Assembly (NCBI GenBank): GCA_973895155.1
Contig: OZ316897.1
Span: 3,876,211 to 3,940,210 of the forward strand
Reading direction: 5' to 3'
Source of the DNA: Marsupella aquatica
Taxonomy: Eukaryota; Plantae; Marchantiophyta
Length of the DNA stretch: 64,000 bases
Positions 41,931 through 63,141 of the stretch are shown here, piece after piece. Position numbers and translations under genes: made by a program. Below the pieces are notes generated by a model. The model was not told where the DNA came from and did no database searches. It worked only from the letters and a program-made list of their open reading frames with translations. Numbering within the stretch: position 1 is the stretch's first letter; each line of letters begins with the position of its first letter.

Positions 41931-42260
41931 ATGGTTGTCTTCCTTGAAAATCGTGTCAAACGTGCACGCCGGTTGTACAAGAGACTCGTGCGACTCAAAG
42001 TTCTCCCCATCGGTATAGGAGCATTGTGGATGGGTGGTACTGATCCTGGAGATAGGCAAAATCCTCTCCGCATTGAATTCTGCGGAATGAATGATGTAGG
42101 AGTTCCAATTCATTCGAGGTTGATGTTAACGGCGTGTTTACATTCTTTGGAGTTTTCTTGTAACTATTGTTGTCGTCGTCTTGACAACAAGTACCACAAA
42201 CAGGCTCACTTCTGTTGTAAGATTTGGAACGAAGACCCTTGGGTGAACCTTTCACGATGA
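41931..42260 (+). CDS. Orphan Cys/His-rich cargo ORF of the transposon
   Basis: 109 aa with CNYCC...H...HFCC. It follows a tgtcgcag acceptor-like site at 41863. No family recognised. Confidence 0.35.
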   Translation: MVVFLENRVKRARRLYKRLVRLKVLPIGIGALWMGGTDPGDRQNPLRIEFCGMNDVGVPIHSRLMLTACLHSLEFSCNYCCRRLDNKYHKQAHFCCKIWNEDPWVNLSR

Positions 42261-42454
42261 GTGTTTCGACCTTTTCATTGAGGCGCGTCTTGGAAGGACA
42301 TATTTAAATAAACAAGTCCTACCCTTGCGCAGTGAATATAATACGTCACGAGTCCTAATCGTTAAACTGTCGTGCAGGGTTGGTACTGTGGATGTGTTCG
42401 GTTACACCTAGTGATTGAAGGTATTTTTATTGGTGGTTTTGGTAGCTCTGCTTC

Positions 42455-43003
42455 ATGGCTGCATCGGAGAATCTAATCGTTGCAAAGATGGGATCCGTTT
42501 TAGCCCACGAGCGTAGGAAATATATTCGAGGAAAAGTGCCCGGTGTGGAATGCGGAAGTTTGTTGAATGGACTTCCCGATGAACTCGTTGAATCTCACAT
42601 TTGGCCCCTCCTAGCCTTATCTTGCACACAAGATGAACACCTTGGCCTTGACCTAAAACTTCTACCAGAAGAACGACTGACTCGAATGAGAACAATCATT
42701 TGTCTTGGAGCCACCTCGAAGAAATGGAACCATCTTGTTGTTGGTACACGATTTTGGGCGCTATTGAAATATGCAGTCCGTGAGATCAATGACATAAACA
42801 AAATGCTCGCAAGCATTCCTAATGCCGACCTTCTCTCAAACCTACATATTGCTAGGGTCTTCCGAGAGGAAACTCATTTCCTCCCTCCCATAGATATGCT
42901 TGGGTGCTTTTCGTATGAGCAGTTAGATCAGTTTCATAGAGTTTGGATAAATCTTGGAGAAAGCGGGAAGCGGACAATTCTTGCATGGCATGGACGAGTC
43001 TGA
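42455..43003 (+). CDS. F-box-like cargo protein
   Basis: Intact 182-aa ORF with LLNGLPDELVESHIWPLL and a later LGATSKKWNHLV...FW, typical of an F-box motif with an insertion. Confidence 0.6.
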   Translation: MAASENLIVAKMGSVLAHERRKYIRGKVPGVECGSLLNGLPDELVESHIWPLLALSCTQDEHLGLDLKLLPEERLTRMRTIICLGATSKKWNHLVVGTRFWALLKYAVREINDINKMLASIPNADLLSNLHIARVFREETHFLPPIDMLGCFSYEQLDQFHRVWINLGESGKRTILAWHGRV

Positions 43004-43295
43004 GTGGATGAGGCATTGCTGCGAACATCCGATAAATTTATCGCACTCCTCATTCCTCTAGTCGATTTTGGGTGCTTGTAAAGAAACACTTTGAATATAA
43101 TTGACTCTGCCTCCCCTGACTTCGGGTTGTGTGGTCCAGAGTGTATTTTTTTGCGCCTCTTCGGATGATTAGCTGACAAGTGCATTGGCTTCACAGCCCG
43201 TTATACAAGGTACTGTAAAGTTGGATGAAACTTGTAGAATTGTAATTAGTATGTTCTCCAAAATTTATTCCTGATTTCTATTCGGTGATCAGGCC

Positions 43296-44008
43296 ATGCT
43301 CGAGCGACGTATTTTTGTACCCTACCCGGATCCTCCAAAATGGGGGAATGGAGCCATGCTGGACCAGCTAAGGAGGCTGGATGAGTCACTAATTTTAAAG
43401 ATATGCAGGCTGGTAGTAAAACCATTTTACCATAACGCATTTCACTTCTACGTAGATCAGGTAGGGGGAGAAATTTATATTTGGTGGGATAGATATGTTG
43501 GATTTTCTAGAAGAGTTATCCTACTCTTTCTGAAAACTGGTGCAGTAAGACATTTTATACTCCACTGCTGTCATGTTGTGAAGGGCAATCCTGCTTATGA
43601 GCCAGAATTCTATGCCGACAACAGACGTAGAGCATTCGATGAGATTCAGGATGTGATTGACGAGCTGGACAATCCTCTTGCCACCGAGTTTTTTATTGAC
43701 ACTGGTGGGAAACTATATTCATACAAGATTCGTCAACTCCCCCCCAGCCGGTCTGTGGGCTCTTTAACTTGATCTATGTAAGTTGCCTGTGGACGAACGT
43801 CCTTGCCAATGGTGAGATCTGTCCATGCTGCACAAATGCTTGTTGTGACATTCCGTCACGCCGGTATTCAGTAGCAGTAGTGAATCCTGAGACTGGTGAA
43901 GTTGATTTCCATTGGCTGTGGGCTTATGATCATCGCATCACTCATATTCCCCAATGGCCCAAGAAGCGGATCGAACGCTTCGCTCTGGCGAGGTTCAACT
44001 ATGATTAG
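43296..44008 (+). CDS. Two overlapping orphan cargo ORFs (43296-43772, 158 aa; 43769-44008, Cys-rich), possibly one frameshifted gene
   Basis: Protein-like ORFs with a 4-bp stop/start overlap. No family recognised. Confidence 0.4.
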
Positions 44009-44046
44009 GGTTTAGGTTTAGGGGTTAAGGTTTTGGATTTAGGGTT
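44005..44046 (+). repeat. Degenerate plant telomere-like (TTTAGGG) tract / telo-box
   Basis: ttagggtttaggtttaggggttaaggttttggatttagggtt upstream of the ParB-MTase gene. Confidence 0.65.
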
Positions 44047-44228
44047 CCATAGCTGATTCTTCGACCTGTACACTCGGCCGTCAATTTAAAGAAGGCTCAC
44101 TTTTGCGATAATTTTATCGGTCTCTTTGTCCTTGTGTGATGAGATATCGTGTCCACATGTGCTGTGAGATTGGCGGCGATAATTTTATCGCTCTTTGCAT
44201 TGGAATTTGTTTATTTGCAGACTTTTCC

Positions 44229-47200
44229 ATGGCTGCTAGTGGAAAGAGTGGATCTGTTGAGGCAGAAAGTCTCATGACAAGCCTCACCAATGCAATTTGG
44301 ACAAGTGAAGACATTTGTGAAGAGGTCAAGTGTATCAAGAAGTCATGGTACTTCCGTGACGCCAGATTATAGTCCACGGGTTTCGAAGACTGTGCTACCC
44401 CAATCCTTTGGGTCCAGTTGCAAAAATCGGCGAAGGTTAATGTTTCGTATGGCCCTGTCATTGCTGTTGCCATCGTCGAGTTCATGGTTGGCCACGGGGA
44501 GGGAAAAGTGTTGACAGAGGGCCTTAGTTTCTTGACAATGTGTGGGCGCAAGGGTTTCACATCTCTCATTGTTACTCTCGATAACTTTGATGAGAAATCG
44601 ATGGACAGTTATCCAGAAGATCCCCTTGTTGCCAATGTTCGGGCAGCAAGAGAGATGAATGTTATGGGTTCGGCTTGGATCGGCCAGTATGTGCAAGATT
44701 GTAATGCCATCATGCTTCCAAGGGTGAACGCAGAGTACAAGAGACTTGTGGGTGAAGAGTTCAAACCTGTCCGCAAAATTGTTTTCAAGAAACCAGGTTC
44801 AAGTGGCAGCGGTGGTTCTAATGCCGATAAAATGTCGGGGCGGAAAGAACCATTGCAATCCTCTACACATATTGACATGGACGAACCTACAACTTCTGGT
44901 CGGGTTTCGGGAAGTGGAAAAGGGAAAGGGAGAGGTAGCGGCAGGGGAGATGCCGCGGGAACCTCTGACGGTGGGAAGAAGAGCCAGGAAACTGGCGGTA
45001 GTGGGAGAGGCCGGGGCAACCGTCGAGGACCATCCGTTAAACCAAGCGAAAGTAAAGGATCCGAGGGATCCGGGCCATCTGGTTCTGGACTTAGCACAAA
45101 GAGGAAGAGGACTGGCTGGACTGAGACGGTGGCTGCAGAAGTAGATAGAGCTCCGTCAATTCCATCAGTTCCAGTCGCGGTTCCTACGGCGCCATTGGTA
45201 AGTACTACATCATTGTACTGTTTAACAAACACGAAATCCGATAAAATCTCGTTGTTTATTTCCTGAATTGCGGATTGTTGAGTTATGTTGAACAAATGCG
45301 AACTCCGATAAAAATCTCGCAGTTTCTTTCCTTAATTGAATTTGCAACGCTTTTGTAGGCTGATCAGGAGGAGGAGACGGCTCTTTTGATGTATGAGACG
45401 GACGCGATCAAGGCAGAGCTCAGTCTTCTGATGCAACGAAGGGTGCAAAGGACAACTGTGCTTCTGCATGTCGACAATCTCATATTTGATGAGGAGGGGG
45501 ATTTGTCAACTTTGATTAGACCAGTGGATAGATTGCATGTGGAAAATATCAAGATACTTCTCATGAAAAACCCCACCAACTTCAGTGCCCTGTTCATGCT
45601 GTGTGTGGATCCGAAGGATTGTCCCACAACCGCAGATTGGGACATCCTGAAGTCAAGGGTATGGAAGTATAGAATTATTGGAGGGAATCATGGTGCTCGG
45701 GCAAAGTCCGAGTTGTTTAAAATGTATGGGAATCAAATATATGGTGAGCTGGAAGCTTGGGTTTACGCTGGGCTTACAAGATCCGAGGTCCGAAAGTTAG
45801 GCTTCCAGCATAACTATGACCAGGAGTATCGGAAGAACATGACTAAAATTGACCAAGTTTGCGCTTGTCACAATATTTTCCTTGAAATGGGTATGGGCTC
45901 GACTAAAGATGTCCGCGAAGCATGTTGTCAAGAATGCATGATGGAGTACACGCCAGGAGTTCGTGACTCCATGGCCAAACATGATCCGGCTTTCCAAATT
46001 GCTTTCCGAACAGGTGAAATTTGGGATCTTCAGGAGAAGATTTTCCAGATGTGGGAGAAAGGTATTGTCTTAGGACAACCCAAAAAAATTGTGGCAACGA
46101 CGAACGCAAAGGGAAAGGTAAAACCTTTGACGGTAAGGGAGATTAAAATGAATAAACTTGCTGGTGACCTCAACTTAAATTCATTTCAAGGTCTCCAAGG
46201 ACTGTCAAATAAGGAGCATATCAAGCGTCTCTTGAATAGGGTTATCGAGAAGGTGATCACTTTGGATCAAGTGCACAAGGAAGGTGAGAAGTTGAAAAAG
46301 CTTGCCAAGGTGAAGAAACTATTTTTGCAGATATCTGGTCAGCCAGATTGGGCAACATGCAGAGAAATGTTTCCCAACGAAATAGATGTCTCGGTCCTTG
46401 GCATATGGGCGGAGAAATTGAGTGACGCGGTAAGCATTCCTCTCACAGCATGCTCTATCGCGAGATTTTTATCGGCTTTAGCATTCCTTTGTTGGTTTCT
46501 AAGCGATTGCATCTATCAGCTAGCGTGCTCCATCGCGAGATTTTTATCGGCTTTAGCATTCCTTTGTTGGTTTCTAAGCGATTCCATCTATTGGCTAGCG
46601 TGCTCCATCGCAAGATTTTTATCGGCTTTAGCATTCATCTCACGCTATTCTAATTGTAGATGTGTTTGACATTCTTACAGCTGAAGATTAATTCAAAAAG
46701 GAAAAGCAAAGTGGTTCCGGCTGTCACTTATAATTCTGCGGGGGAGGTTATTGTTCCCTCAGCTGAAATCCCTTATGTGTTTAAGAATTTTGTGCTTGCT
46801 GCAATCGATAAGTACAATCGGCTGAGGTCCTTAGGCGAGGGCACAGCAGAAGCGTTTGAACAAACATGGAAAAATGCAGACGGGGATCGATTCTTTTCCC
46901 TACTATCTCCATGTTGGTGATGTTCGAATTTTGGATTCTTTTGTTCAGCCAAGGGTGTGGTTGCGGATATTCCATATGGTTTTAATGCTCCTGGTTCGGA
47001 GTTTGATGAAGTGGCCTTCACAGAAAAGGACATTTTAGACATGTTGACAAGTTTCTCAAAGATGACGACCGCTAAGCAGTGGAGGTTTGTTGTGATCCAT
47101 TCACTACAACAAACGCATATGGTGATGTCTGCACTGAAGAGTGTATGCAACTGTGGGGTCGAGGCTGGAATCTGGGAGAAGACTAACATTCATGAGCGTC

Positions 47201-47785
47201 CCGCTGGAGCTCGATTGGCGTGGGGTTTTGAGAACTGGTCGATAGGTTTCTATAGCGAGGAAGGCATTCGGAACATGAACATGTACAATTTCCAACCGGA
47301 TGAGTCTCGCGTCAATATCATCAAGGTTCCATGTGTAACCAAGAAGTCCGTTGATCCGTTGGGATTTGTTGTGAACCCATATCAGAAGCCTGTTGGTTTA
47401 GGGGCTTGGTTTGTTTCCCATTTCTCTGAGAAAGAGGATTGGGTTATTGATCTTTGTTGTGACCGGATCGACATTAGCTGCTACGCTCCTCAATTCTCGC
47501 CAGGGTTGTGCTGTTGATAAGAGTTCTGCGCAGATTGGTTTTGTAAAATCCCAGATCATGATTCTGGAGTCAAACTGGAATTTATATGAAGAATCCCAGA
47601 TTGAAGGGCACGACGTTGAAGGTCATGAGATTCAACCACCAATTGCAGGCCAATTGGGTGTACTCGGGACATCGACTTACGTAGTTGAGGTCGTGAAGGA
47701 GACCGAAGAGGAACAAGAAGAAACTGAGGAAGAGCCTCCCAGAACACCAAATGAGGATGATCTCAACGACATGTTATTAGATTAG
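44229..47785 (+). pseudogene. Spliced ParB/Srx-like domain + beta-class N6-adenine/N4-cytosine DNA methyltransferase fusion; exons 44229-45197, 45359-46429, 46681-47785; in-frame stop at 44370 and frameshifts near 46890-46955 and 47461
   Basis: Two phase-0 GT-AG introns (45198-45358, 46430-46680). ParB-like segment: IRPVDRLHVENIKILLMKNP...YRIIGGNHGARA...AWVYAGLTRSEVRKLGFQHN. MTase segment: YYLHVGDVRIL, VVADIPYG (motif IV), NPYQKPVGL...FSEKEDWVIDLCC[G]TGSTLAATLLNSRQGCAVD (motifs X/I). The IV-before-I order indicates beta class. Confidence 0.85.
46440..46640. repeat. 75-bp tandem repeat (about 3 units) in MTase intron 2, each unit carrying the palindrome variant CGAGATTTTTATCG
   Basis: Motif starts at 46461, 46536 and 46611. 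Confidence 0.9.
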
Positions 47786-48113
47786 TTGCGTGTGCTCGTT
47801 AGGATAATGTCAATCACCAATGAAGTTGTCGATAAATTTATCGACTTATGTATTCCATGAGGAAGAACCTTTGTCACATTTATTAATGCGATAAATTTAT
47901 CGGACTTTGCATATATCGGACTATCGCGATGTTCCTGCTGGGGGAATGGAGTTGTCGATAATCTTATCGGACAGCATTGTATTCTCTAACTGGTTTGTCA
48001 TTGCAATTATTTAAAAAAAAAGATATCATTATAGCTGCGGAGTACATAGTCCCAAAATGATAACCACTGTACATATTCATGGGAACGATAACCATTATAA
48101 CTTAAACCTGAAA

Positions 48114-51100
48114 CTAGCTTCGACTATCAACGACTATAGTCTCCATTGCATTTTGAATGATTCGTCTTGTTTGTATAGGGAGAGTACTATTTGCCAATAA
48201 CGCAAAGTTATACGCATAAATGGTAGTTTCTGATAGGGACAATTCATCCTCCAGTACTTTGCTAGATGAAGCCTCTTTCTCTGGATAATATCTGCCTTCA
48301 ATTGTAGACTCTTCCTCCGAATCCATTGCATACCAAGTGATTTTAATCCGCTCCGGGATGTCGTTAATTCTTGTGAGAATCTCAGTCACTTTTGCCATCT
48401 AGAATGGTCTTCCCTTGGGATCCTGATGGGCTGCTACACATATCATTGCAAATTTAGTATTCACCTCTAGATCCTTGAAGTCTCCAATTTCCGTGACTTT
48501 TCTTCGACTTCCGGAATACATGACTATCCTCACACCCGCTACTTTATCAACCAAGCTAGGTTCCATTGCTGCTTCCGTAGGATTACTCGGAAGTTCTCTC
48601 TGTACGTTTACCTTGGGCCAACTCCAATCAAAACTCCATTGTGCAGGTTTCAGGTGGTGCTGAATCACTTCTTTTTGTTTGTCAAAAAAACGACCCCACC
48701 ATAGACGATCTGCGTCGTCAAAGTAATTGAATCCATCTTCAATTGCTCTTCGATATTTTTGAAGAGTTGACAAATAACTTTGAGCCGCCCGCTCATCTTG
48801 TTCCTCAGCATCATTCTCTTGCTCTTCATTGTCTCCTGTCGCTCCCGTGGCCGACTTCAATGCCATTTGTGGTGCGACCCACATTCCAGATGATGGAATG
48901 TACCGAACAAAATCCACCGTCTCTCCCCAATCGATTGTCGTTGAAAGATGTTTGGCATGGAATACGGACCGAGCACTTCCATCTTCGAATACTCTAGTAA
49001 TCCGAAATTGTTTTTGAGCACTTATGCCGTGGAGAGTACGTAGAACCTGACCATCCATATCCTTGTCATTTGCTTGATCCTTGTCTGACACAAATTTCTT
49101 GAAATCGGCAACCTCGTCGACAAAAAATATCTTTGCCGTAGGATTGTAGGATTCCTCTATGATTGCTGAAAGAGTGTGCAACCGGAAAGCTTTCCGCTTG
49201 TTCAAAACTTGCTAAACATTTGATCAATTTGATCATGTGTGTGCCCCACCAATAGGAAACCAACCTTTATTTTCTGGAAAACACCTATCTCCACCAACAT
49301 ATTCAAATATGCCATAAGATATTTATTCTTGTTTTCCCGAGCTGTGTTATCAAGCTGGAGGTAAAGCACTGGAGGTAAAGCACTGGAGGGAGCAGACCTT
49401 CCCAGGTATTCAGAATATGTTGGATAACGTGGATGGTCAGGTTGCTATCATTGTGAATATTTGGATAGTTCAAAAAAACATTTGAACTTAATTGTTTGTT
49501 GAAGATCAAACAACCCACTACGTGTACAGGGATGAAATACTTTTCATCCATATTCTTCGGACACCGAATGAAATGAGGGTAACTCTGTCTTCTTTTGATC
49601 CATTCCATCAATACAGATGCCCAAATATTTCTTCGGACTCTTGTAACATTTGCTCCGGTGCTTTGCTAACTTCTCCCTCTCGACTGCTTGTGCCTTCCGA
49701 TGCTCGTTTAGCAATGTTGAGAATTTTCCTACAATAATAAAAATGTTTAGGACAAAACATGATAACCGCAATGTTGAACCCTGCGATAAATTTATCGGGT
49801 TCAGTATTCAAACACAAGACCGTAATGATAAACCCTGACAACGATAAATTTATCGCGTTCAGTATTCAAACACAAGACCGTAATGAAAAACTGTGATAGC
49901 GATAAATTTATCAGGTTTAGTATTCAAACTGTTCAAACGATATATTCACTCACATGGCCAAAGAAGAAGCACATGAATACTCAACCCGATAAAATTATCG
50001 GGAGTAACACACAGGTTTAGAAACTTACTCTTTTCTGCTTCGAGTGTTGCCTTGTCACGGAGTGCTTTGAATTCAGTACACGGGGCGCAGGTGGAGAAAC
50101 GGCTCCTTTTGGGGATGCGCACGCGAGGAAACTCCTTGTTCCAAATGCGAACAAACCACGAATATGTCATGCCTTGTTTTTGGTGCATTAGAGTTTCGGA
50201 CTGGAAGGCATCAAAAACTTCTGTTTTTGTCCAATTGTCAGGTAAATGAAAGATATCCTTGTTGGGGAGACTCTCGACATTTGTGGAAAAAAAATCATCC
50301 AGCCATTGGACGAGACCAAGATGTGCGGGTGATTTTTCTCGACAAACTATACCGATCTGTATCCGAGAAAACATGTTCTGCGAGATTTTTTGGAGATGAT
50401 TATTTCCTAGTGAAAATAATTTCTTAAAACCACTCCGACAAAAGGATCTACCGCTAACTGAGTAACCACTTGCACCAGCATGCCCACCCTTCACACATCC
50501 TCTTAGAAGGACGTTCTTCTCTGGGTAGGATAGCCCATAGTAATAAGTGCGTTGTTTCGTCACGGCTAGTAGACCCAAATCCCGCAGACAGTAATTATCA
50601 CAACACGAATACTTATGAATTTCTCTCATTTTGTTTCTATTCAATTTGTCATTTATCACATTGTCTTTCCTAGTAATTCGGTCCCTATCTTTTTTACTAG
50701 GCTCATTTGACTTCTCTACAACCTGAAATCCGTTCATAACATTGGCATTTTCGGGTCCTTCAGGTGCCTCGCGAATAGATGCATCACTCTCTGCTGAGCT
50801 ACCATCCTCTATAGATCTCCTTGACGCATTTAGAGGGGCATTGAATAGACGACTATAGCTATTCTCTTCGACAGCTCCTTCTAAACATTCAGACATAACT
50901 TGTGCTATTATATCGGATTCTCTATCTCCTTCCTCATCTTCGTCCTCCGATGCACTCGACTCATCTGAAAACACAATTGGACTCCGTGGCTCTCTATACA
51001 TAACCCGAACGCCACTAAGACCTCTCCTCGATACTTGGAGCCTGGAACCAATGACAGCCCGCCCTTGAGAACTTGGAGATTCTGGATTCGCACGTGCAGT

Positions 51101-51677
51101 CCCAACGACTCCGCGAGCTGCTGGAAAATTGAGCACTTGTTCACCACGATTCCCACGGACCATTCGAGAAAGGGCCGAGTCTGGACTTCGCAGTCCGATT
51201 CCCTCGCTTGCTCGCACATCCAGTCCAGGCAATGCAAAGACCGATTGCCGTATCGGTCTTTGTATTTCTGTGTCCCGATCCTCACCCGGAGACTGAAAGA
51301 TCCGTCGTTGAACTTGTGTTGAATGTGGCAACTTGAATGCCGACGACGATACGCGTATCTGTCGCCGGATACCCTCTCCATAACCCGGGATGGATGGCCT
51401 GAAGCGACGTCTTGGACCTAAACCTGGGATTGAAAGTTTCTCATTTCTTGGCGATGGAACGCTCAAGAGACGACGCTTCTCAGGTTTACTAGGCGACACA
51501 TAGTAAGCACTGGGCTCAGGACCAGAACTTGCATCAAAATTTGAGTCAGAGATTTCGGGCACTATTTGTTGTGAGAGAGGTAGAGCTTTAAGTATGCGAC
51601 TTGGCAAACAGCGAGCGACAAGATTAGGAGAGGATTCAACTAAACTGGAAGGTGAATCTGTGTCTGATTGAGACATG
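48114..51677 (-). pseudogene. Sola1-like DDD transposase; exon 1 ~50029-51677, intron 49729-50028, exon 2 48114-49728; frameshifts and one TAG stop (probably TGG) at 48399-48401
   Basis: CCxxxC and FPRVRIPKRSRFSTCAPC (Zn motif). Predicted catalytic segments ICIDGMDQKKT, VLYLQLDNTARENKN and FLLVGHTHDQIDQMFS. A 14-bp duplication (ctggaggtaaagca, ~49354-49385) causes one frameshift. Confidence 0.8.
49784..49930. repeat. 58-bp tandem repeat (about 2.5 units) in the transposase intron, each unit starting with the palindrome
   Basis: Units start at 49784, 49842 and 49900. Confidence 0.9.
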
Positions 51678-51961
51678 GCTATCCAAGACACTATGGGGCT
51701 TTGCATTCCTCCCGCAATCAGGGAAAACAAAAGGCTCAATGGACAGAATGTTGCTCCAAGAACACAACTCCCAAAACTCTACTCTCGATAATGACGCCAA
51801 AAACTTATCGGCGGTGGCCCTTTTATAGTGTCTGTTGAGGGGTTGGCCCACGTGTCCACTTTTGATTGGCTGTCACCCTAAACGACAAAATAGCAGAAAA
51901 GGGTATATTTCTTGGATTTCCAATTTTATTCTCACACGTGCATCGTGGCAAAATTATATAG

Positions 51962-52252
51962 TTTTGAAATTGAAGCGATAAATTTATCTGATGTTGGTAT
52001 TGCAAAAGTGGTTCCTTCATATGGAAGTTGCAATTTGAAATTGAAGCGATAAATTTATCTGATGTTGGTATTGCAAAAGTGGTTCCTTCATATGGAAGTT
52101 GCAATTTGAAATTGAAGCGATAAATTTATCTGATGTTGGTATTGCAAAAGTGGTTCCTTCATATGGAAGTTGCAATTTTGAAATTGAAGCGATAAATTTA
52201 TCTGATGTTGGTCTTGCGAAGAGTTTTCTTCATATGGATAGGAATTTTGAAA
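51962..52252. repeat. 71-bp subterminal tandem repeat x4, each unit containing CGATAAATTTATCT
   Basis: Motif at 51976, 52047, 52118 and 52190 (period 71, 71, 72). Confidence 0.95.
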
Positions 52253-52854
52253 TTTAACCGATGAACCGAAGGATCTTAGTATTGTCGACTAGTATTTTTG
52301 TCGCCCGTAGTTTTCGCGATAATTTTATCGGACTGCGCATTGCTGTTGAAAGAATGGCATGTTGACTATGGTCACTTGCGGAGGTAACTGCAAGGTAAGT
52401 TTGACGAACCGTGCAGTAATTCTTATCGACTGTGATGTAAAATATTTTTGGTAAATATCCAAAAACTGAGAAACCTGAGATTGGGTCAGAGTTTTCGTGG
52501 CTCAAATCCGGAGTCCGATACAGTTATCGCACTTGGCTCGAAACGTGGATATGGATTTATAGATCTAAGACCTTTCATATATCTTCGGAGAGCGTGAATA
52601 TGAGGTCGAGGAGAAAGTTTTTCGGATCTAATTGTTCCTTGATAATATGAATGTTTGTTAGCATGAATTTTATTGGTTTTGATCATTATTAAATTTGCTG
52701 TTTCAATCCGAACTCCGATACGAATTCCATTATTTCCCCAAAAATGCGTTTTTGATGAAAAAAACTGCCGATTTCGCGAGATTCGGCGGAAAATGAAAAT
52801 ACACTTCTCGTTTAGAGGAAATAGTTCTCGTTCGGTCCGAAATCGTGTTCTGAA

Positions 52855-53464
52855 CAAGAAGGATACAGATTTGTTGATGAGAATACAATGATTATTTGTT
52901 TGCATAGAGATAATGTGGCTAAATATATAATACAATGAGTTTACTAAATGTTTTTACTATAGATCATCATATAGTAGAAGTTAATGTCCATACAAATGCT
53001 CCTGCTAAGAGACTTGGTCAAAAGCAATGGATCTCGATCTGACACGAAGTTTCATCAACTAACACATATAGCTATTGGTTGTAGAGTTTTATTGACTGAG
53101 AATATTGATATTTCAAATGAAGCTGCTAACGGTAGTAGTGGAGAAGTACATGATTTGTTTTTTGATGAGAACATTTGATTTGTCCACAATAATTGTTAGA
53201 CTGCATAGTAACGGTAAACTAGTAAGAGTTGTGAGATCTTGTACTAAATACAAAAGAATCAAGAACATGATTAGTTACCACAAGTCAACATTTCCACTAA
53301 TGTTAGGAAGTTCAATGACTGGACATAAATCACAAGGATGTACCTTAACGGGAAAAGTCCTGAAGTGGTTGTTCTATCTGTTTGCTCCTAGTTTGACATT
53401 TGTGATGTTGAGTCGTGTTACAAACAGGAAGAATTTAAAATTTGTGGGTAAGTTATCTCCTTAA
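52855..53464 (+). pseudogene. Helitron Pif1 helicase, 3' part (motifs IV-VI)
   Basis: IAIGCRVLLTENIDISNEAANGSSG, FPLMLGSSMTGHKSQGCTL and FVMLSRV. Continues the frame interrupted at 41020. Confidence 0.88.
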
Positions 53465-53488
53465 TTTGGATTTTACTGTCTACAGAGA

Positions 53489-53959
53489 ATGAGATGTGGT
53501 AAGTTGGAGAATGACATGTGCAAATCTTTTGAAATGGCATCGAAAAGGAATCTGCACAACACAGAGAACTTGAAAGCAACTGAGAATGTTGTTTTCAATT
53601 ACGGAAATGGTACGCAACAATCTCCAGTCAACTTGGCATCTGAATTGTCTCCTGAAGTGAAAGTAGGACCAACGGCAACAGAACACGGAACCCCGATAGC
53701 CAAAGAGTTTTTACGAATGATCCTTGTTGATATCAAGGATGAAGACACAAAAGATAAAGGAGAGGAACCAATGTTCAAGGAGCCTACACCAAAACAAATT
53801 AGATATGCAGATTCATTTGGGATAGAGATGACAGAGTGGGAAGGTGGTATCAGTGTGAAGGGTATGAGTCTTCTCATTGATGCTAAAAAGGAATGGCGAC
53901 AAATGTTTCTGGATATGCATGGAGACTATCTGGCATCTGATATGGATCTTACTTTCTAA
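53489..53959 (+). CDS. Orphan ORF immediately downstream of the Helitron helicase
   Basis: 156 aa, containing EPTPKQIRYADSFGI...MSLLID, which resembles a small helical PTxKQxxY motif. Confidence 0.4.
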   Translation: MRCGKLENDMCKSFEMASKRNLHNTENLKATENVVFNYGNGTQQSPVNLASELSPEVKVGPTATEHGTPIAKEFLRMILVDIKDEDTKDKGEEPMFKEPTPKQIRYADSFGIEMTEWEGGISVKGMSLLIDAKKEWRQMFLDMHGDYLASDMDLTF

Positions 53960-55329
53960 ATTGTTTAGCTATATATTCATGGCAAATTTTTTTTCATTAG
54001 ATTATATATTCTGTGATTTTTATGTACATCTGGACTTGTGTGCAGGCATTGTAAAATAATGTCTACGTTACAAACATGTTTCATTTGATGAAACACTGAC
54101 AAGGAAAGAGATCGAGCATGAAATTACTGAAATGTCATACAAGAGGAGTAGCAACAGATCAGTTGAGACAGATGCATCATTCATTAAAAGTACCTATGGA
54201 CATTTTGGTCAATTTGACAGCAAACCAGGCAGGGAAAGTCATTGCTTGAATGAACAACGAACGAGATGTACACCCGGATGCAGGTGGATTACAAGATATT
54301 CCTAAACGTTCTTTGTTTGATGATGGTGCTATGTACTTCTAACTTTCCTGGAAGTATTAAGATAGAAGGATCTCCAGGACAACATAAATGTACATAGAAT
54401 GTCACATACATTTTAACTACATGTAGTGTTAAGTGGATGCTATCAAAAGCGTGGGACTATTTTCTACTTTAAGTTATGGAGATTAGCACACAAAAACCAT
54501 TTCACCACGCTAGCTATATTGTACTACTTTTTAAGTACATGACTGATTCAATGACAGAAAAAGTAATTGACTGAGTGACAATCTACAATTACTGCATTTT
54601 GAGTAGTATTGTGAATTTGATTGGATTGTTAATCTAAATGTGTTTCAGGTGAAGAATCTGCTTGCAATTCATGTGACGGTAGTGTTATGACTATTTACAG
54701 CATGAATACTAGTACTCAAATTGAATGCATAGACAATCCAAGAATTCATCGTAGTGGGCTAGTCAACGGAGGTTGTGAAGGAAAAGCTATGGATCAATGG
54801 AAATATGATTGGTTGCTGAAAATGATTTTCAAGCCAACATTCCAGGAAGAGGAGGCTCGTATGGAACTTTTGGAAGAGCTTTAATTGGGACATTTATCAA
54901 ATAGTTGAGAACAGAAGTTGTCCAAAATGTAGTACAAAATAGACACAATTTTTTTTTATAAATATTTTGTAAGGATCTAGAGTTAGAGGAATAGCATTGC
55001 AATGTTAAGTTTTGATGATCACTGTACTAGAGACTACAAATAAATCATGTTTGAAAGATTTACAAGTGGATGTACTTATATTGTTCTACTATTAGATATA
55101 CACACACAAATTCTCAATATTATCTTCAAAGCATTTAGTTTGAGTACTAGGCTTGGTTACAAAAGCTAGAAACAAGTCATAGCAAATGCGATGATACTTG
55201 TGGTCAGCTAAAAGAATGATCTGAGATGAGAATATATAAGTTCAAATTCAAATCAAAGTGAAAGTTAAGTTGATGTACTAACAAATCTAAGTATTTCTAT
55301 GATTCCTTTGTAACAATCTATCCAGTTTT

Positions 55330-56650
55330 TTATTTGTCATAAAGAGCACCTACATAAGCGGCATTACTAGTTGAGCTCTTGTGTGTTGTGCCATGTACAA
55401 TATCACTACGGAAAGCAAATAGGTTGCCATCTTCAATTCCCAGACGCATTCCATATTCGGGAATTACAAAATCAATTGTTGAAATTGTTGAATCTGGATG
55501 ACTAGCGTAGTTACATAATGTACGTAAACTCTGCCGTGTCTTCATCTTTGTGCATTTTGGTGCAGAAATCTTTGCTGATGTAAAGTTGATAAGAGCTTGG
55601 CCCTTTAGTTTCCAACTCCTTATCAAAAAATGACATATTTTGGTCTCCAGGAGCAAGATATGGGTGCGAGTAGTTGAAATAACCTTCCAACATTGTAGGG
55701 CACCACCACATATAGAGAGCCATTGAAACGATGTTGACAAGCTCAATATGAGAGTACTTATCAACTAAATCCTCAAAGCGGAAGTTATGGATTGTGCACA
55801 ATCTGTTAAGAGATGCTTGATTTTTGTCTTGTGAGTATAAAAAGATACTCTTTTGGACAAGTTGTATGGGTTATCAAAAGGACCAAATCCTGTTATGTAA
55901 CTCTTGAACGATGCTTTGTTTTTTCCTCTTTTAATCTCGTAATGTGATCGAATCAAATAAGGAAACTAATAAACTTTGAATGAAACCCATAGTTTAACTT
56001 GATAGTTTTTAATGTCTTACAACCATTGCTATAAGATAAGGCTTGGATCCTGACCTATCATAAAAATATGTATAGTTATGGGTTTTCTCCATAACCACAA
56101 AATCATTAGGGAAATCCCTAAATATAAAACCACCATTAGAAGAGGAAGAACTAGGCTTCTTACCATTCCATGCACCCTTTGTAATGTGCAACATGAGAGG
56201 AAGAGATATGATGGACAGTTAATTCTGCTTTAGAAGTTTTCTCGTAGTTTGAAGTTTTCTTTGAGTATAGTAAGAAAACATTCCAACGAATTGATGTATG
56301 GGTTTTGGTACGTTCAGCCTACATTGATGATTGGAAAAAAATTCATCAATTTCTTTCCATGTATTGATTGGAATAGAACATGGAAGCTTCATTTTGTCTT
56401 TCCTTGCAATTTATATACCCATTCCAAAGTATGGCTTTGGAAAACTTTGAGGATCTATTGAACGTAAATTGAGTACTTTTGTAACAAAAAGTACAAGAAC
56501 TTTTTTGTCTCTAAGAATCCAAGAAAGTGCAAACCTTTCTTTGCCAAGGTGCAATCTGCTCAAGTATACCCACATTTGAACAAATAAATCAACAGAGAAA
56601 TCATCTCCCATTTATTTTCAACCAGGTGAGTTTTTTTTTGTTTGACCATC
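55330..56650 (-). pseudogene. TET/JBP-family 2OG-Fe(II) dioxygenase, frameshifted
   Basis: Reassembled across frames: HYEIKRG...YITGFGP...LYMWWCPTMLEGY...YQLYISKDFCTKMHKDEDTAEFTY (HxD at ~55544-55552)...DFVIPEYGMRLGIEDGNLFAFRSDIVHGT (distal His at ~55393). Confidence 0.72.
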
Positions 56651-56689
56651 TGCAAGAAAATGAAAATTATTAGGTTGGTAAAGTTAGAA

Positions 56690-57410
56690 CTGGGTCAAAC
56701 AGGACATCGACTCTTACGGACATGTGTACTATAATGCCTTAATTTGTAACTTAAAAAAAAATTCAACATATATTTTTAGGTTTGTAAAGTTACACTATGG
56801 GTCAAACAGTACACCGACCCTTTCAGATGTATGTACCATTCACCTTAATTTGTAATTTTCATAGTTTTTTCAAGCATATATTTTTGAGTTTGTAGACTCA
56901 GGGGTTTCACTTTCACAAAAATGGCATATCACGTGCGACGAAGGATAGGGTCATTTTATTGGTTGTAAGGGAAGACTTAAGAATTTTTGTAGAAGAACAA
57001 TAGGGTCTTTTAAATTCAATTTTGAGACTTATAAGAACAATAGAGCCTTTTTAATCCAATTTTTGGAATATTCCAAGAATATTCCAACTTTATAGGGGTT
57101 AAAAAATAATATTTTTTCTTACATTTTAGGGGGTCCAAGGCCTAAAAACGTCGCAGGTGATGGGGAGGTCCCCATGTAGTGAGACCCCCGAGTTTGTAGA
57201 GTTACAACTAGGGTCAAACAGTAGACCGACCCTTTCGGATATGTGTACCAGAATGCCTGAATTTGTAACTTTTCATAGTTTTTTCAAGCTTGTATTTTTG
57301 ACTTTGTAAAGTTACAACTGGATTCAAACAATACACCAACCCTTTCGGATGTGTGTACCAGAATGCCTTAATTTGTAACTAAGTTTTAGAATTTTTTCAA
57401 ACATGTATTT
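56690..57410. repeat. ~107-110-bp diverged tandem repeat (4 units, interrupted by MITE copy 2); a further copy at ~60826-60885
   Basis: Core gggtcaaacagtacaccgaccctttcggatgtgtgtaccagaatgccttaatttgtaac at ~56692, 56799, 57211, 57320 and 60826. Confidence 0.85.
56897..57192. mobile_element. MITE copy 2 (TIR ctcaggggtttcact / agtgagacccccgag; perfect 8-bp TSD tttgtaga)
   Basis: TSD at 56889-56896 and 57193-57200. Removing it restores the surrounding repeat unit. Confidence 0.85.
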
Positions 57411-60400
57411 TGTTATTTCATGGACAAGACTTCCATCTCCAATGGGGGCTTGACATGATATATACTTACTTTCTTGACGCTGCTTGTATAAAGGCCGGAG
57501 AACACTAAACGTGCGTCGTACAAAGCGAAAGGTCTATAAGTTGCTTTCATAAAGTTCCAAGTCAAGGTTTTCCACAATCTGCAACTGAATAACACGTGAA
57601 ACTTAGAAACATCTAATTAACACCATGGGCCCTCACTCTATGTATACTAAGTGTACGCCCTGCGCCCGGACCCCCCCTTGCCTACCCCTTCTTAGTATTT
57701 TTTTCTTTCATATACATTACCCTTGTTCCATGTAAAAGATTAGTTTTTGATAATTTTTTATACCCTTAGGTGCCTTATAAAACTGATAAAATTTATATTT
57801 GAAAACACATAATTGTGGAATTATAATAAGGAAAACCCAAGATAGGGCTAACATACAAGATCCAATTGGAGATACACAAATTTTCTGGACAAAAATGATG
57901 CATACAGCACCCTAGTGGGGCATACAATCACTCACACAGTTTAGATATGTTTTACCAGTTTTACTAAACTAGTATAGGCAAGACTACAAACAAGACATGG
58001 ATTGGTAGGCAATAGGTGGGCAGTGGCAACATCCCCACAAGCATGGGCATTGTCTGCACTGAGTGTGCACTCTACATTGGAGAGACTATTACAAATGGGA
58101 TTACAAACCAGATAATCAAACTAAGATATGGGTCTAGGTACTAATAGAGTGACTCACTTGGGACACTATGTTCCAATGATTGAGACCTTGCCACATGGCC
58201 CCTTATACAATGACGCGTGTCACATACATTATAGGACCCATTCGGCTGAGTTAATATGCCACGGTTTTGGAAATACCCTTCTCCCTTATAAACCCAAATT
58301 TGTATAAAGTTGCGGGTTGGTTGGTTCTAATTGATTTATAATTATTAGCCAGAAATGGATTAAAAATACCCTTCAAGCGGGCGCACGTGTTTCCGGGATT
58401 ACGTAAGCTGAGGGCCCAGGGAATTAACATCTAGATCATGTTTCCATCTAGACAAACATCTAATTAACATCCTTACCCTAAATAATCTCAAACAGCAAAA
58501 GTGAAAAGAAATTGAATGTCAATTCTAGTCGGGATTATCCTGTGAACAAACAATGGCAAATTGGAATCTTCCCTAGCTGAGAACCCTTCTTCAAAGCCGT
58601 AGTCATTCTATTGTTGACCTCAGGAAACCTTGTCCACCCCTTGTAAATTGGGAAGGACTAGAATCCTTTTGGTGGAGAGATTGGAGATCCTTTTTGCCCC
58701 CCTCAAGCTTGCAATTGACCAACTGCAAGATAAAGCATCGCCTGACTGATACACATGCAAATACCTGTCCTATAGGTGTACGCCAGCCCTTAGCTTCAAC
58801 CACATTCTATTGTCGTCCCCTAGTGCAGCTACCTGTTACATAGGTGTATGCCAAATCTTAGCTCAACCACAATTTGTTGTCTTCCCCTAGTGTAGTTGCG
58901 ATATTCTTTGAGCTAGTCTCATTTATGTTTATGATTCCCCCTCCCCTTTTGACTTTCTCATCAAAAGAGACCCAGCCTGCATTCAAAAATGCATAACAGT
59001 GGGGAAATTGTCAGACCTTAGATAGCATCACCAATTTGGGAGTTCATTGATGTTGCTAATGAGACTGTACATCAAGACTCTAAGAATGTTGATGATGGGC
59101 ATCAGATAAACGTCGCACGATTGGGGGCATGTACAAGCTGGGAATTGTATCTCATCAAGACATTGGAGTCCTATTGGTATTTGTTTTCAACAATGCGGAT
59201 ACATACAGAGCTAATTGCAGCAAATGAATGTGGATACTTACAGAGCTGTAAAAGCTTGACAATGCTTTTGATGTAGAGTTTGCATGTGGAGCCTCCCAAG
59301 ATAATGCCATTGTCGTCGTACCCACCACAGTGGCCATTCAGGAAGTTGCTACAAATATTGGGCTGTAGATGAGCTCGATAGATTTCTGTGCTACGACTAG
59401 TGAGTTCTAGATGCACCCAGAACTGGTTGTTGGGGAGTGTCATCAAATGCTAGTCCGATAGCTCCCATAGTACTTGAAGCTGACGATGATGGTAGTGAAG
59501 TTGACTGGAAGGAGGGGCATTCTTGTCATTAGCAACGTCAAGGGTGTTCATTTGAAGCTTACAAATTGTATGTACATGGAGCCAGGACCAGATGTTATCA
59601 ATGTTCTACACTCTCTCGATAGTGAAGGCAGGCAGCCAATCTTCACTTTGATTTCTATATTGTGGGGTGGGGTGCTGTCAGTGGCACATTTCAGTGACAT
59701 GTGGGAAGTGCTTCATTATCTTATTCACATAACAAAGGTGGGACGGTGAAAAGCCAAGTTTCAAGCCCTTGGCACCCTTCAAACTTGTCATTTTCTGCCC
59801 CCTAAGGACTGCCTAGCGAGGAAGAAAGCCTCACTTACTCATAACGTGACTATCCCTAAACATTGCTCTGTTTGTTTCCTTTGCAAGAACAAAAGGGAGC
59901 CGGCTATCCCTAAAAATTGCGGTGTTTTTTCTTTTGCAAAACCAAAGGGAGCAAGACATTGGGCCCAATATGAATAAGGAGAGTAGAGTCTAAGGAACAT
60001 ACTGTTGTGTCATCGAACTTGCAAGGCACCGAGGGACGGGGAACCTAGTTGGGCCCAAGATAGGGCACTCCTAAGGGGATGAGGTGGGGCGGGAGGTGGG
60101 GCCAATAATGCCTTGCAACATGTCAAATGACAAATGAGACTCAAGGCACCTCAGGTTACGCGGGTTAAAGCATTTGAAAAGGGGGTCAAAGTAAGAATAC
60201 AAAGGGGAGGGGATCGAGGGAAGAGGTTGATAATAACATTCAATCAGTTTGGGGAGCAGGTTAGTGGAAACGTTCTTCCAAAGCTCTTTTGTGGTTGAAT
60301 TGGATGGCAGTAGTAGGCTAGCAAAGATGGGAGAGCCCTCACACACAAATTAAGGACTGAGGTGAGCAATTGGATAGTACGGGTTTGTCTCAAATATTTT

Positions 60401-63141
60401 AACCAAGAAATGGTGGGTTGACAAAAACCCAACCATACCTTGACTTCTTTGTGCAGGCAAGCCTCTTGCAAATATTTAGAAAAATAGAATTACTATTTTG
60501 GAAGGGGGGCACAGTAGGCAAACAAAGCCCAAAATGTCAATCAAAGTGTAAAGCAAAAGTTGGAAGACAGTCTACAATATACCACACAGCCTGAGTGTAA
60601 ATTAACAATGAAATTAATTTGCTTACCTTTATGATTATGGCCATCGAAGAACTGTTGTCCGATCTTAACCCTAAATCAATACCAATAATCCCTCAAATGT
60701 TATTTGCACCCACAAAACAAGTAATGCCAATTTGTAGAGTCCACCTGATCATAGAAATGATAATTTTATTGATAACAGTTTAGGGTTTGTAATTTGATGT
60801 TAAGGTCACAATTGAGGTCAAATCCCGGTCAAACAATACACCGACCCTTGCGGATGTGTGTATCAGAATGCCTTAAGTTGTAACATTTTTGATCCATATT
60901 TTCTGAGAGGTGCAAGGGTATTCTCCTCATCTAGAACATTTATTTTCTTCCAACGTACTAATTTATGATTTATCCATTAATCATACCAGGAATACCTTGT
61001 GAGCACCAAGTCATATGGGAAAAATCAGATTTTGTTCAACAAAGATACATTGGACCACGCGCCCTCACATCTTCCTAGGCCCTAATTAATATCCTTGCCC
61101 AAAGCATGTAGCCAACAAAAATGGGTTCTTTCTTTTGGGGCCTCACCGTGAGAATAAGGGTATATTCTAGGGAAACATTACTACTTTAGAAATACTTTCG
61201 TTATCGTTAGAACCTGAAGCAAATGTGAGGGCAAGAATCCAATTGAAACTAGCCCTCAAATTTCCAAATTCAGACCAACAAAAGAAAGATTGTTCATTTG
61301 TGGTGTGGAGTGGCAATATGGAGATATCAATGTGGTAAAATTGATAAACTTTTAAACTTTTTGACATCATTTGGAGCTAATTCAAAGCAATCAGCCATCC
61401 TTGAACCTGTTGTGACCCTTAAAAGAAAGTTCTGGAAGAAGTTGAAGAAGATTGAGTTTTGACAGAATAATCGCTTTCAACGAAATATCGCTTTGGAAGA
61501 AAACCGGAAAAAAATCACTTTGGAGTTGAAGAATCACTTTGTGTTTTCTACAAAAACTTGGAATGACCATTGTGGATCGGCTTGATGTCGGATGAATGAG
61601 CTTTTAGGCTTGTTGGAAAGCAATTGGAAAGGGCTACATGAAGAATTTTGGAGCCAACAAAACCAAAGTAGTTGAAAATATCTCAAACCGATTCTCCGGG
61701 TTATTTTGGCACTTGTCTTTTAAATCGTTTTACACCTCTTCCCCTCATTCAAGATTTTACATTGGTTAAGTAGGAATAGGATACCAAGTGACTCATTTAG
61801 TCACCCTTAGGAATATAGATTTCAAAAGGTCTTAGTTATCTCACCTTTTTAAGTCCCCATGTTTAGATAGGAATAGATCTTAGTCCTTTAGGAATCTTTT
61901 GGCATCTCAGGCCATTAAGGGAGACTTTCTTATGGACTCCCAGGACTATTTTCAATGTCTTTTCTTTTGAATTGATTTTTGACCAAGTTGTGGGTCTTTC
62001 TCTCATGCCAAATTGGGCTTAGGAGAGAGAATCTAATGAAGGAGAATTGCACCATAATCTAAATTGAATCAAGCATTTCATGCACCAATTTATGCATTCA
62101 AGTTTTGGATGTTTGAATTAGAGGTAGAGAATAGAATTGAATGAATGAATAAGGTGAGTCTTTGAAATCTAGTAAATGAGGGAATTGTATTGACTCTTAC
62201 AACAAAAACCGATCACCATTGGTGTATAAAGAAGTTGGAGAGAAGAGAAAACATATTTATCTATTGAGAAGAAGGAGAGCCTAAGGAAATTCATTGTAGA
62301 ATTTGTGAAATAAAAATCATTTCAGGATTCTGTGTTACCAAAACAGTGAAGAAATTGCTTTAGGATTTCAAATCACATAAAACTAGAATAAATCGCTTGC
62401 CTTATTCCTACCGGGAACGAACTTTGGTATTTTTAAGCACTAGCCCCGACTACCCCTTCTTTGAACGTGAATAGCGGAGAGGACAATAAAAATATTATCA
62501 AAATATATTCTCTATTCATATTATTTGAAGGTTAATGAAATGATAAAAAACCTATCATTTTAATAAACATATATAATATATCATTCTCTTTCATGTGCAC
62601 ATCAATCTTTTTGTATGCACATCCATCTTCTATGCACATATGTTGTGGTGGGGCCATAGTGCCCATATTTTTTGAATATAAATACTTTAAAATTATCATA
62701 AAAACTTGCATGTACCAATTGACATACATCATAGTCATGTCACCAGTTTTTCCCATGCACATGATGACCATAGAGTTACGGTCTAGAGGCTTCACTCTAG
62801 ACCTAGGCTTTTACAAGTAGACTTCAATTGGCGCTTTTATAGTAAGATAATCATGTACATTCTATGTGATTACACTTACCACATGTGGTCCACTCTCAAA
62901 CAATATTTACACATATTCGGATAGGCAATCCATACACTCACATCACACAAAGCTTGTGAAGAAGTCTCCCCACAAATAGCTTTTGATCAGATGTAATCTT
63001 GTTAGCAAACATCTCTAATATTATCAGCAACCTCAGAAAATTGAGAAGCTCTGCAAAATACCAGCCAATATCCCACCACAAGCATTGCTAGTCAATTATC
63101 CAATCATAACCACCAAAGGTTCAGAACGAATCAATCCACAT

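What the first reader, a model, noticed from the sequence alone, without database searches (positions are those of the whole stretch)
55330..56650. TET/JBP-like dioxygenase relic in land-plant mobile DNA, 2.5 kb from the methylase transposon
Seen in sequence: HxD (MHKDED) and a distal FVIPEYG...GNLFAFRSDIVHGT strand pattern, broken by frameshifts and convergent with the Helitron helicase. Established knowledge: TET/JBP enzymes oxidise 5mC or T, travel with transposons in fungi and algae (KDZ elements), and are not standard land-plant genes. Inference: probable cargo of the Helitron, a possible 5mC eraser used against silencing. The usual 2OG-binding Arg after the distal His is not evident, and linkage to the Helitron is unproven because I could not define its ends.
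Basis: partly seen in the sequence, partly recalled or inferred. Interest (0 to 1): 0.78.

Follow-up and report, generated by a model that had tools for sequence, protein, structure and literature searches.

The report
Dead TET-like gene in plant Helitron
A broken gene in a land-plant genome, predicted to encode a TET-type iron enzyme that modifies DNA bases (a class that reviews say plants lack), lies tail-to-tail with the helicase gene of a likely rolling-circle transposon and is likely its passenger, whose intact copies would likely help the transposon weaken DNA-methylation silencing.

Summary
Minus strand 56649-55330 is a roughly 450-codon pseudogene with at least four frameshifts and four internal stops, but HKDED (55552) and HGTT (55395) survive. 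It belongs to a small unnamed family with three stop-free 447-459 aa members at 33-35% identity. A low-confidence domain model has the 2OG-Fe(II) double-stranded beta-helix fold, with NgTET1 ranked first but tied with AlkB-type folds. Motifs and spacing match the PE-type TET/JBPs of fungal transposons, which also lack an invariant last-strand Arg, so that objection falls. In two public runs a diverged, net in-frame variant covers the PIF1 helicase, spacer and gene at one shared depth, about 4-5 times the exact-match contigs. This supports cargo status, but no contig bridges the two genes and no termini were found. The methylase transposon is only an insertion that splits the helicase. TET-bearing Helitrons are published for fungi and Chlamydomonas; I found no land-plant report. 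Activity on 5mC is inferred only. The scan noted a similar pair elsewhere in this genome (e1-10602750, unchecked).

The parts
55330..56649 (-). TET/JBP-like dioxygenase pseudogene, about 450 codons; frameshifts near 55960, 55795, 55522 and 55341 plus more in 56190-56620; stops at 56413, 56221, 56011, 55996 in the N-terminal frame
   Evidence: stop-free relatives P0004, P0019, P0022
55538..55576 (-). SKDFCTKMHKDED: strand II with the HxDxD iron ligands (His codon 55552)
   Evidence: HxD in 12 of 13 and HxDxD in 11 of 13 homologues that cover the site
55348..55470 (-). C-terminal strands: FVIPEYG, distal His (HGTT, 55395), basic residue at His+5 (Lys here), last strand AAYVG without Arg
   Evidence: His and Arg at +5 in 7 of 7 distinct homologues that keep this segment
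55876..55890 (-). GFGPF strand, matching by eye the G-x-SAGSR / GWRK strand that carries the first Arg in fungal transposon TET/JBPs
38100..41014 (+). Decayed Helitron-like Rep-helicase, 5' part: HUH-like HAHIPLW and YLLKY motifs (by eye, consensus recalled), PIF1 helicase motifs
41021..52848 (.). 11.8-kb TIR transposon inserted in the helicase gene (duplication TCTGAA, or CTGA with one more TIR base); not part of the TET unit
   Evidence: joint 41014 to 52849 in runs X1, X2, X3
52849..54880 (+). PIF1 helicase 3' part (to 53464), then further + strand frames and a CxxC-bearing exon-like piece ending near 54880, about 450 nt from the TET-like gene's 3' end
56666..57411 (.). 107-bp tandem array upstream of the TET-like gene, interrupted by a MITE; one more unit at 60805-60885
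   Evidence: joint 57287 to 56773 without the MITE
56897..57192 (.). Very high-copy MITE with 8-bp duplication TTTGTAGA; a sister copy at 36653-36936. Independent insertions, not LTRs of the element
57623..58421 (.). Second TIR element with 8-bp duplication AATTAACA, inserted downstream of the array
60332..60900 (.). Stretch at the same multi-copy depth as the Helitron, with one array unit: possible continuation of the element behind a single-copy-like stretch (58740-60332)
   Evidence: X1 126.9, X2 65.3; inferred

Best explanation
This is a dead copy of a gene that is predicted to encode a TET/JBP-family iron dioxygenase and that likely rides as cargo in a low-copy Helitron, where intact copies would likely oxidise the methyl group of 5-methylcytosine in DNA and so weaken host silencing of the element. 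Shown: a decayed reading frame of a conserved 450-aa family with an His-x-Asp...His triad, tail-to-tail with a PIF1 helicase gene in a remorin-bearing contig, and a diverged, more abundant variant over both genes. Predicted: the double-stranded beta-helix fold and TET/JBP affinity, closest to the fungal PE type but with HxD instead of HxE. Inferred: co-mobilisation by rolling-circle transposition; Fe(II) binding; a co-substrate held without the usual last-strand Arg, perhaps by the invariant Arg five residues after the distal His; oxidised 5mC escaping maintenance methylation (recalled from TET1 expression in Arabidopsis).
For: Family and triad. Atlas: best named clusters are Tet_JBP and 2OG-FeII_Oxy_6 at 0.92-0.94 for both the window piece and P0004 225-449. 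Fold: all 50 listed VIA rows are DSBH oxygenase-type folds by title; NgTET1 first (Z 10.4, rmsd 3.5, 165 aligned), TET2 Z 9.1 with the longest alignment (189), CMD1 Z 8.0 (188); NgTET1 first in Foldseek (E 0.021). A 29-column ungapped pattern made from 5 PE-type Helitron rows finds its best site among 35,389 stop-free six-frame positions of the window at 55470 (9 of 20 columns, next best 7; 0 of 200 shuffles of the 56-aa piece reach 9). Linkage: variant contigs at X1 depth 111-157 on Rep/helicase pieces, 119 at the empty site, 128-172 in the spacer and 130-143 in the gene, against 22-34 for exact-match contigs; X2 54-79 against 11-15. Length differences of the variant contigs (697 vs 681 nt; 457 vs 448 nt) equal the window's net frameshift modulo 3, and the 55341 insertion is absent in both runs. 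Precedent: TET+ Helitron1/2 in fungi (PMC12730594) and Helitron2 in Chlamydomonas (10.1101/2022.06.16.496473).
Against: No Pfam, PHROG or PDB sequence match is significant. The model is weak (pLDDT 46, pTM 0.45) and NgTET1 is tied within 1 Z with rice ALKBH1 (9.9) and a Burkholderia oxygenase (9.6). The Atlas recognition value for the window piece was low (1905). The PE pattern covers a segment that I chose after seeing the likeness, and in 3 of the 8 homologue records with that segment intact (P0008, P0011, P0019) 7-20 of 200 shuffles reach the score, in a fourth (P0009) 124 of 200. The acid that reads 5mC in CMD1, TET2 and NgTET1 sits at His+5 and a stacking aromatic on the last strand (PMC7854593 passages); here the acid is at His+4 and no aromatic is at the equivalent place by eye. 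No contig bridges helicase and gene, no Helitron terminus was found, the tool warns that depth is no copy number, and the Rep domain has no Pfam hit. CpG observed/expected is 0.37-0.49 across helicase, spacer and gene, so the element shows no sign of having been protected from methylation. No PE- or PU-type enzyme has been assayed (PMC12730594, section 4.2).
Confidence: 0.5

Rival explanations
1. Same gene and same element, but different chemistry: the enzyme does not use 2-oxoglutarate in the usual way and writes another mark, for example an ascorbate-derived adduct on 5mC as CMD1 does, or hydroxymethyluracil from thymine.
For: No Arg on the last strand in any of 7 distinct homologues with that strand; the first-Arg position is not invariant (Pro in P0004 and the window). 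A Thr/Ser eight residues before the first His matches CMD1 Thr337 by spacing. CMD1 itself sits in a transposon. CMD1 is among the longest fold alignments (188).
Against: CMD1's other vitamin C and base contacts (Arg244, Trp358, Ser414, Phe416, Arg418) are not evident by spacing; CMD1 ranks 27th. Fungal PE-type rows also lack an invariant Arg there (Gln at Gly-2 in 9 of 9 complete rows, Arg at Gly-1 in 5 of 9), so the trait is not CMD1-specific. An invariant Arg at His+5 could serve 2-oxoglutarate.
Confidence: 0.22
2. The gene is TET/JBP-like but is not Helitron cargo: it belongs to a neighbouring or nested element, or gene and Helitron were multiplied together as part of a larger duplicated block.
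For: No bridging contig and no termini. The region is a nest of insertions. Unchecked notes report TET-like genes in IS3EU-like elements of this genome. TET/JBP genes move between transposon superfamilies in fungi (PMC12730594).
Against: Depth shows no step between 52872 and 56730, whereas each of the three recognisable insertions shows a 5- to 1000-fold step. No inverted repeats or duplication were found around the gene. Only about 450 nt separate the two 3' ends.
Confidence: 0.18
3. The family is another 2OG-Fe(II)-fold oxygenase (AlkB-like base repair, RNA or protein hydroxylase), or an iron-binding but non-catalytic DNA-binding protein.
For: Fold Z-scores of ALKBH1, prolyl hydroxylases and OGFOD1 lie within 0.5-1.6 of NgTET1; no significant Tet_JBP Pfam match.
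Against: All ten best named Atlas hits fall in the family or clan of the best one, and the named rows shown are Tet_JBP or 2OG-FeII_Oxy_6. AlkB's RxxxxxR end motif (recalled) is absent. Collinearity with PE/PU rows runs over the whole domain by eye. The triad is kept at 33-35% overall identity.
Confidence: 0.1

Closest known systems
PE-type TET/JBP dioxygenases on Helitron1/Helitron2, Zisupton, EnSpm, Plavaka and IS3EU of Pezizomycetes and Agaricales (Kojima 2025, PMC12730594)
   Same: Transposon context including Helitrons; ungapped C-terminal spacing F-x-I-x-x-Y-G-x-R...L-x-A...HGT (11 of 29 identities by hand to each of Helitron-15_AB and EnSpm-22_AB); no invariant Arg on the last strand; similar order of strands and helices by eye
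   Different: HxD (HxDxD) instead of the HxE hallmark; land-plant host; Tyr instead of Gln two before the last-strand Gly; invariant Arg at distal His+5; a 190-aa N-terminal extension of no known fold; the SAGSR Arg only partly kept
PU-type TET/JBP (Pfam PF20515 2OG-FeII_Oxy_6) on Puccinia Helitrons and other rust transposons (PMC12730594)
   Same: HxD followed by a second Asp and D-[IL]-S-x-F; 3 of 5 Helitron rows also lack the distal Arg (Gln or His); weak Pfam hit on the same stretch (E 0.15-0.17)
   Different: GWRK motif replaced by GFGPF; below Pfam cut-off; C-terminal spacing differs
Chlamydomonas TET/JBP genes in Helitron2-2_cRei and Helitron2-3_cRei, and CMD1 in DNA-1_cRei (10.1101/2022.06.16.496473; PMC7854593)
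   Same: Green-lineage transposon-borne TET/JBP, including Helitrons; CMD1 also does without a functional distal Arg
   Different: No sequence match to CMD1; CMD1's vitamin C pocket residues mostly not evident; chlorophyte, not land plant
NgTET1 (PDB 5cg8, 4lt5) and human TET2 (9hxv)
   Same: Best fold match; HxD...H triad; D-F-C-x-x-x-H-x-D and HxTT resemble TET2 (TET2 motif recalled)
   Different: Both canonical 2-oxoglutarate arginines are not conserved; host genes rather than cargo

Membership tests
TET/JBP dioxygenases | Double-stranded beta-helix 2OG-Fe(II) fold | tested here: met
   Domain model of homologue P0019 191-447: 25 chains at Z 8 or more, all listed rows DSBH oxygenase-type; low model confidence
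TET/JBP dioxygenases | HxD/E...H iron triad | tested here: met
   Window HKD 55552 and HGT 55395; HxD in 12 of 13, distal His in 7 of 7 distinct homologues
TET/JBP dioxygenases | Significant match to Tet_JBP (PF12851) or 2OG-FeII_Oxy_6 (PF20515) | tested here: inconclusive
   Best PF20515 E 0.15-0.17, 12 bits against cut-off 27; none for P0019, P0022; Atlas features point to both families; no profile-profile library available
TET/JBP dioxygenases | Closer in fold to TET than to other 2OG families | tested here: inconclusive
   NgTET1 first in both searches but tied within 1 Z with ALKBH1 and a bacterial oxygenase
Canonical 2OG-using TET (TET2, NgTET1, AG type) | Conserved Arg on the last strand binding the C5 carboxylate | tested here: not met
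   Absent in window and 7 of 7 distinct homologues; Arg/Lys at His+5 instead. Not invariant in PE and PU types either
TET/JBP dioxygenases | Oxidises a 5-methylpyrimidine in nucleic acid | not testable with these tools
   Needs enzyme assay
PE-type TET/JBP (Kojima 2025) | HxE motif | tested here: not met
   HxD throughout; HxE called the hallmark in section 3.4
PE-type TET/JBP (Kojima 2025) | C-terminal F-x-I-x-x-Y-G-I-R...HGTS spacing | tested here: met
   Best site in the whole window, ungapped, 9 of 20 columns; same register found in 9 homologue records; segment chosen after seeing the likeness
CMD1-like vitamin C glyceryl transferases | Vitamin C pocket residues (Arg244, His249, Thr337, Trp358, Thr399, Ser414) | tested here: inconclusive
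   By spacing only: Thr337 and Thr399 equivalents present, Trp358 and Ser414 not; no residue-level structural alignment available
Helitron | PIF1-like helicase | tested here: met
   Pfam PIF1 E 2.5e-11; both halves hit PIF1 structures
Helitron | HUH Rep domain upstream of the helicase | tested here: inconclusive
   HAHIPLW and YLLKY motifs by eye (consensus recalled); no Pfam hit
Helitron | Termini (5' TC, 3' hairpin plus CTRR, or Helitron2 asymmetric repeats) enclosing the cargo gene | tested here: inconclusive
   No convincing terminus in scans; ends probably disturbed by insertions; shared depth only

The most novel reading that the evidence does not exclude
An early-branching land plant hosts Helitrons that carry their own, undescribed clade of TET/JBP enzymes, related to the fungal PE type and possibly acquired from fungal transposons, with a rebuilt co-substrate pocket; intact copies are active and write oxidised 5mC, or a new base, into a land-plant genome, a demethylation route that plants are said to lack.
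Probability: 0.3. Interest if true: 0.85.

Novelty: new variant of a known kind. Interest (0 to 1): 0.57.

Why it matters
A review states that plants lack genes for TET proteins and demethylate with ROS1/DME glycosylases (PMC7300381 passage). A transposon-borne TET/JBP clade in a land plant would break that rule, give a genetic source for oxidised cytosines in plant DNA, and add an enzymatic anti-silencing strategy to the known VANC type. Three stop-free relatives make the chemistry directly testable, and the lack of the usual last-strand arginine makes an unusual product plausible. The arrangement itself (TET/JBP on a Helitron) is already published for fungi and a green alga, and this copy is dead, which limits the surprise.

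Tried and rejected
No whole genome was held, so sister copies could not be read. A word-based homologue search with the window frame found none among 776 candidates; with alignments it added two proteins. Scans of metagenome contigs, GTDB genomes, IMG/VR and phage records found no relative, so the neighbourhoods of the homologues are unknown. Sequence searches of the PDB gave nothing below E 0.3; PHROGs only a weak unnamed hit (E 0.025). The full-length model was poor (pLDDT 49, pTM 0.28) and gave only weak DSBH rows and no fold for the N-terminal part. No RNA holder was listed among 6 runs; this is no evidence on expression. Rejected: the 300-bp direct repeats at 36653 and 56897 as LTR-like ends (they are a high-copy MITE with its own 8-bp duplications and loose ends on both sides); a functional link to the methylase transposon (nested insertion, different depth); the missing Arg as a sign of decay (it is missing in stop-free relatives). 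Hairpin and CTRR scans gave two weak candidates (58746; minus strand 37160) and a loose hairpin before CTAG at about 60905-60934, none convincing. A quantitative profile or tree against the fungal PE/PU sequences was left out, so the PE affinity and any fungal origin rest on by-eye comparison and one pattern test. Literature searches for a land-plant TET/JBP listed none; Iyer et al. 2013 and 2014 were not held and could mention scattered plant members. Look-ups of earlier findings by sequence and by look-alike place returned nothing.

Full report
Observation. Six-frame translation shows MHKDED in one minus-strand frame and FVIPEYG...HGTT in the next (positions). A phmmer search of the stop-masked frame 56647-55514 against 1.84 billion representatives gave 15 proteins at E 0.001 or better, the best a stop-free 449-aa protein (P0004, E 1e-39, 31% identity). 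Two more stop-free full-length members followed: P0019 (447 aa) and P0022 (459 aa); the three are 33-35% identical. All come from unnamed or 'hypothetical' entries on contigs of 1-3 kb. Aligning them back maps the window copy into alternating frames with shifts near 55960, 55795 and 55522, a one-base insertion at 55341 relative to other copies, further damage in 56190-56620 and four stops at 56413, 56221, 56011 and 55996. The start resembles that of P0019 (MVKQKK against MGKQKR) at 56649, directly behind an acceptor-like TTGCAG, so an upstream exon is possible. The gene is real and this copy is dead.

What the protein is. HxD is kept in 12 of 13 homologue records that cover the site and HxDxD in 11 of 13; the distal His and an Arg five residues later are kept in 7 of 7 distinct homologues with that segment (Lys in the window), with fixed spacing to an AAY[MV]G strand that holds no Arg. 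Pfam gives only PF20515 at E 0.15-0.17. The ESM Atlas places both the window piece and P0004 225-449 next to Tet_JBP, 2OG-FeII_Oxy_6 and unnamed, mostly fungal clusters at 0.92-0.95; the recognition value for the window piece was low. A model of P0019 191-447 is of low confidence (pLDDT 46, pTM 0.45) but matches DSBH oxygenases throughout: NgTET1 Z 10.4 (rmsd 3.5, 165 aligned), tied with rice ALKBH1 9.9 and a Burkholderia oxygenase 9.6; TET2 9.1 (189 aligned), CMD1 8.0 (188), CcTet 7.9. Foldseek also ranks NgTET1 first, at E 0.021.

Which TET/JBP type. Kojima 2025 (PMC12730594; I read part 1 of 7 of the text, section 3.4, part 1 of 2 of the discussion, passages, supplement parts 1 and 9 of 20 and the first 30 of 36 'Helitron' places) lists PU, AG and PE types on fungal transposons, PU and PE on Helitrons. 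By eye the family is collinear with the PE rows, from an xYDxxGxxLV[AG]xV opening through a G-[FH]-[SG] strand, an AL[FY]W helix and the iron motif to the C-terminal strands, where 11 of 29 residues are identical without a gap to each of two PE rows (hand count). A pattern made from five PE Helitron rows finds its best site of 35,389 at 55470 (9 of 20 columns; next 7) and the same register in 9 homologue records, four strongly (1 of 200 shuffles) and five weakly; I chose the segment after seeing the likeness. The HxE hallmark of PE is not met; around the iron motif the family looks more like PU. CMD1, which uses vitamin C, also does without a functional distal Arg (PMC7854593, passages), but most of its pocket residues are not evident here.

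Surroundings. The + strand carries a decayed gene with HUH-like motifs (by eye) and a PIF1 helicase (E 2.5e-11) from about 38100 to 41014 that resumes at 52849. Between lies an 11.8-kb TIR element with a target duplication; contigs of runs X1, X2 and X3 join 41014 to 52849, and the element's depth is about ten times that of its flanks. The 'methylase transposon' is therefore a nested insertion. Further + strand frames run to about 54880, some 450 nt from the 3' end of the TET-like gene. Upstream of the gene lie a 107-bp tandem array and two MITE-like insertions with 8-bp duplications. A remorin gene at 20.8-23 kb marks a land-plant contig, and exact-match contigs in two studies cover parts of the gene, which argues against contamination.

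Linkage. In X1, exact-match contigs have depth 22-34, while diverged contigs have 111-157 on the Rep and helicase, 119 at the empty site, 128-172 in the spacer and 130-143 in the TET-like gene; in X2 the figures are 11-15 against 54-79. Binned depth shows no step from 52872 to 56730. The variant over the gene differs at about 6% of sites; its length differences (16 and 9 bases over two intervals) equal the window's net frameshift modulo 3, so it is net in frame there, though stops or compensating shifts are not excluded because the tables were cut. Of 15 listed differences in the HxD-bearing piece only 3 are silent and none touches the His or Asp codon, as expected if the window copy drifted. 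The same depth returns at 57347-57612 and 60332-60765, so the element may extend to about 60900. Limits: depth is not a copy number, no contig spans both genes, and no terminus was found.

Mechanism. Most likely a Helitron captured a TET/JBP gene and intact copies oxidise 5mC, loosening silencing (about 0.5 for the whole chain; about 0.88 for TET/JBP affinity, 0.78 for cargo). Substrate, co-substrate and benefit are inferred. CpG depletion over the whole unit (0.37-0.49, against 0.87 in the TIR element) shows no protection. Rivals: other chemistry (0.22), not cargo (0.18), another oxygenase (0.10).

Novelty. TET/JBP on Helitrons is published for fungi and for Chlamydomonas (10.1101/2022.06.16.496473, passages). 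A review says plants lack TET genes (PMC7300381, passage; PMC10573277 passage contrasts plants and animals). Eight searches listed no land-plant case; passages of PMC11065753, PMC12344493 and PMC4738411 named none; Iyer 2013 and 2014 could not be read and may bear on this, as may supplements I did not see. The scan's own unchecked notes report a TET-Helitron pair and TET-bearing IS3EU-like elements elsewhere in this genome; I could not test them. Verdict: new variant of a known kind, interest 0.57.

Noticed in passing
window 41021-52848: High-copy TIR transposon with many CGATAAATTTATCG palindromes, a DUF7869 transposase on the minus strand (E 1.6e-10), a frame with an IIGGNH ParB/Srx-like motif (45359-46669) and one with DIPY and DWVIDLCC methyltransferase-like motifs (46921-47517; family labels recalled).
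   Followed up: partly
window 42446-44008: Extra frames inside the TIR element, one with a weak F-box-like hit (E 0.065).
   Followed up: no
window 36653-36936, 56897-57192: Two copies of a 290-bp MITE with 8-bp duplications and extremely high depth in three runs.
   Followed up: yes
window 57623-58421: 800-bp TIR element (CCATGGGCCCTCA ends) with 8-bp duplication AATTAACA, depth about 1000 in X1.
   Followed up: partly
window 20823-23029: Intron-bearing remorin gene on the minus strand with a long N-terminal region.
   Followed up: partly
window 13762-16361: Gln/Gly-rich gene with a weak KH hit and a C-terminal RING finger.
   Followed up: no
window 28490-29466 and 63519-64000: Two 87%-identical copies of a retroelement-like 3' end; the frame at 28738-29466 looks like the end of a non-LTR or DIRS-type open frame (by eye).
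   Followed up: no
window 37165-37195: Strong small hairpin with an overlapping second inverted repeat just left of the Rep-helicase; possible terminus signal.
   Followed up: partly
P0004 residues 1-100 (window about 56600-56300): The family's N-terminal helical domain is modelled with pLDDT 80-89 but matches no known fold above Z 5.3; it could be a targeting domain.
   Followed up: partly
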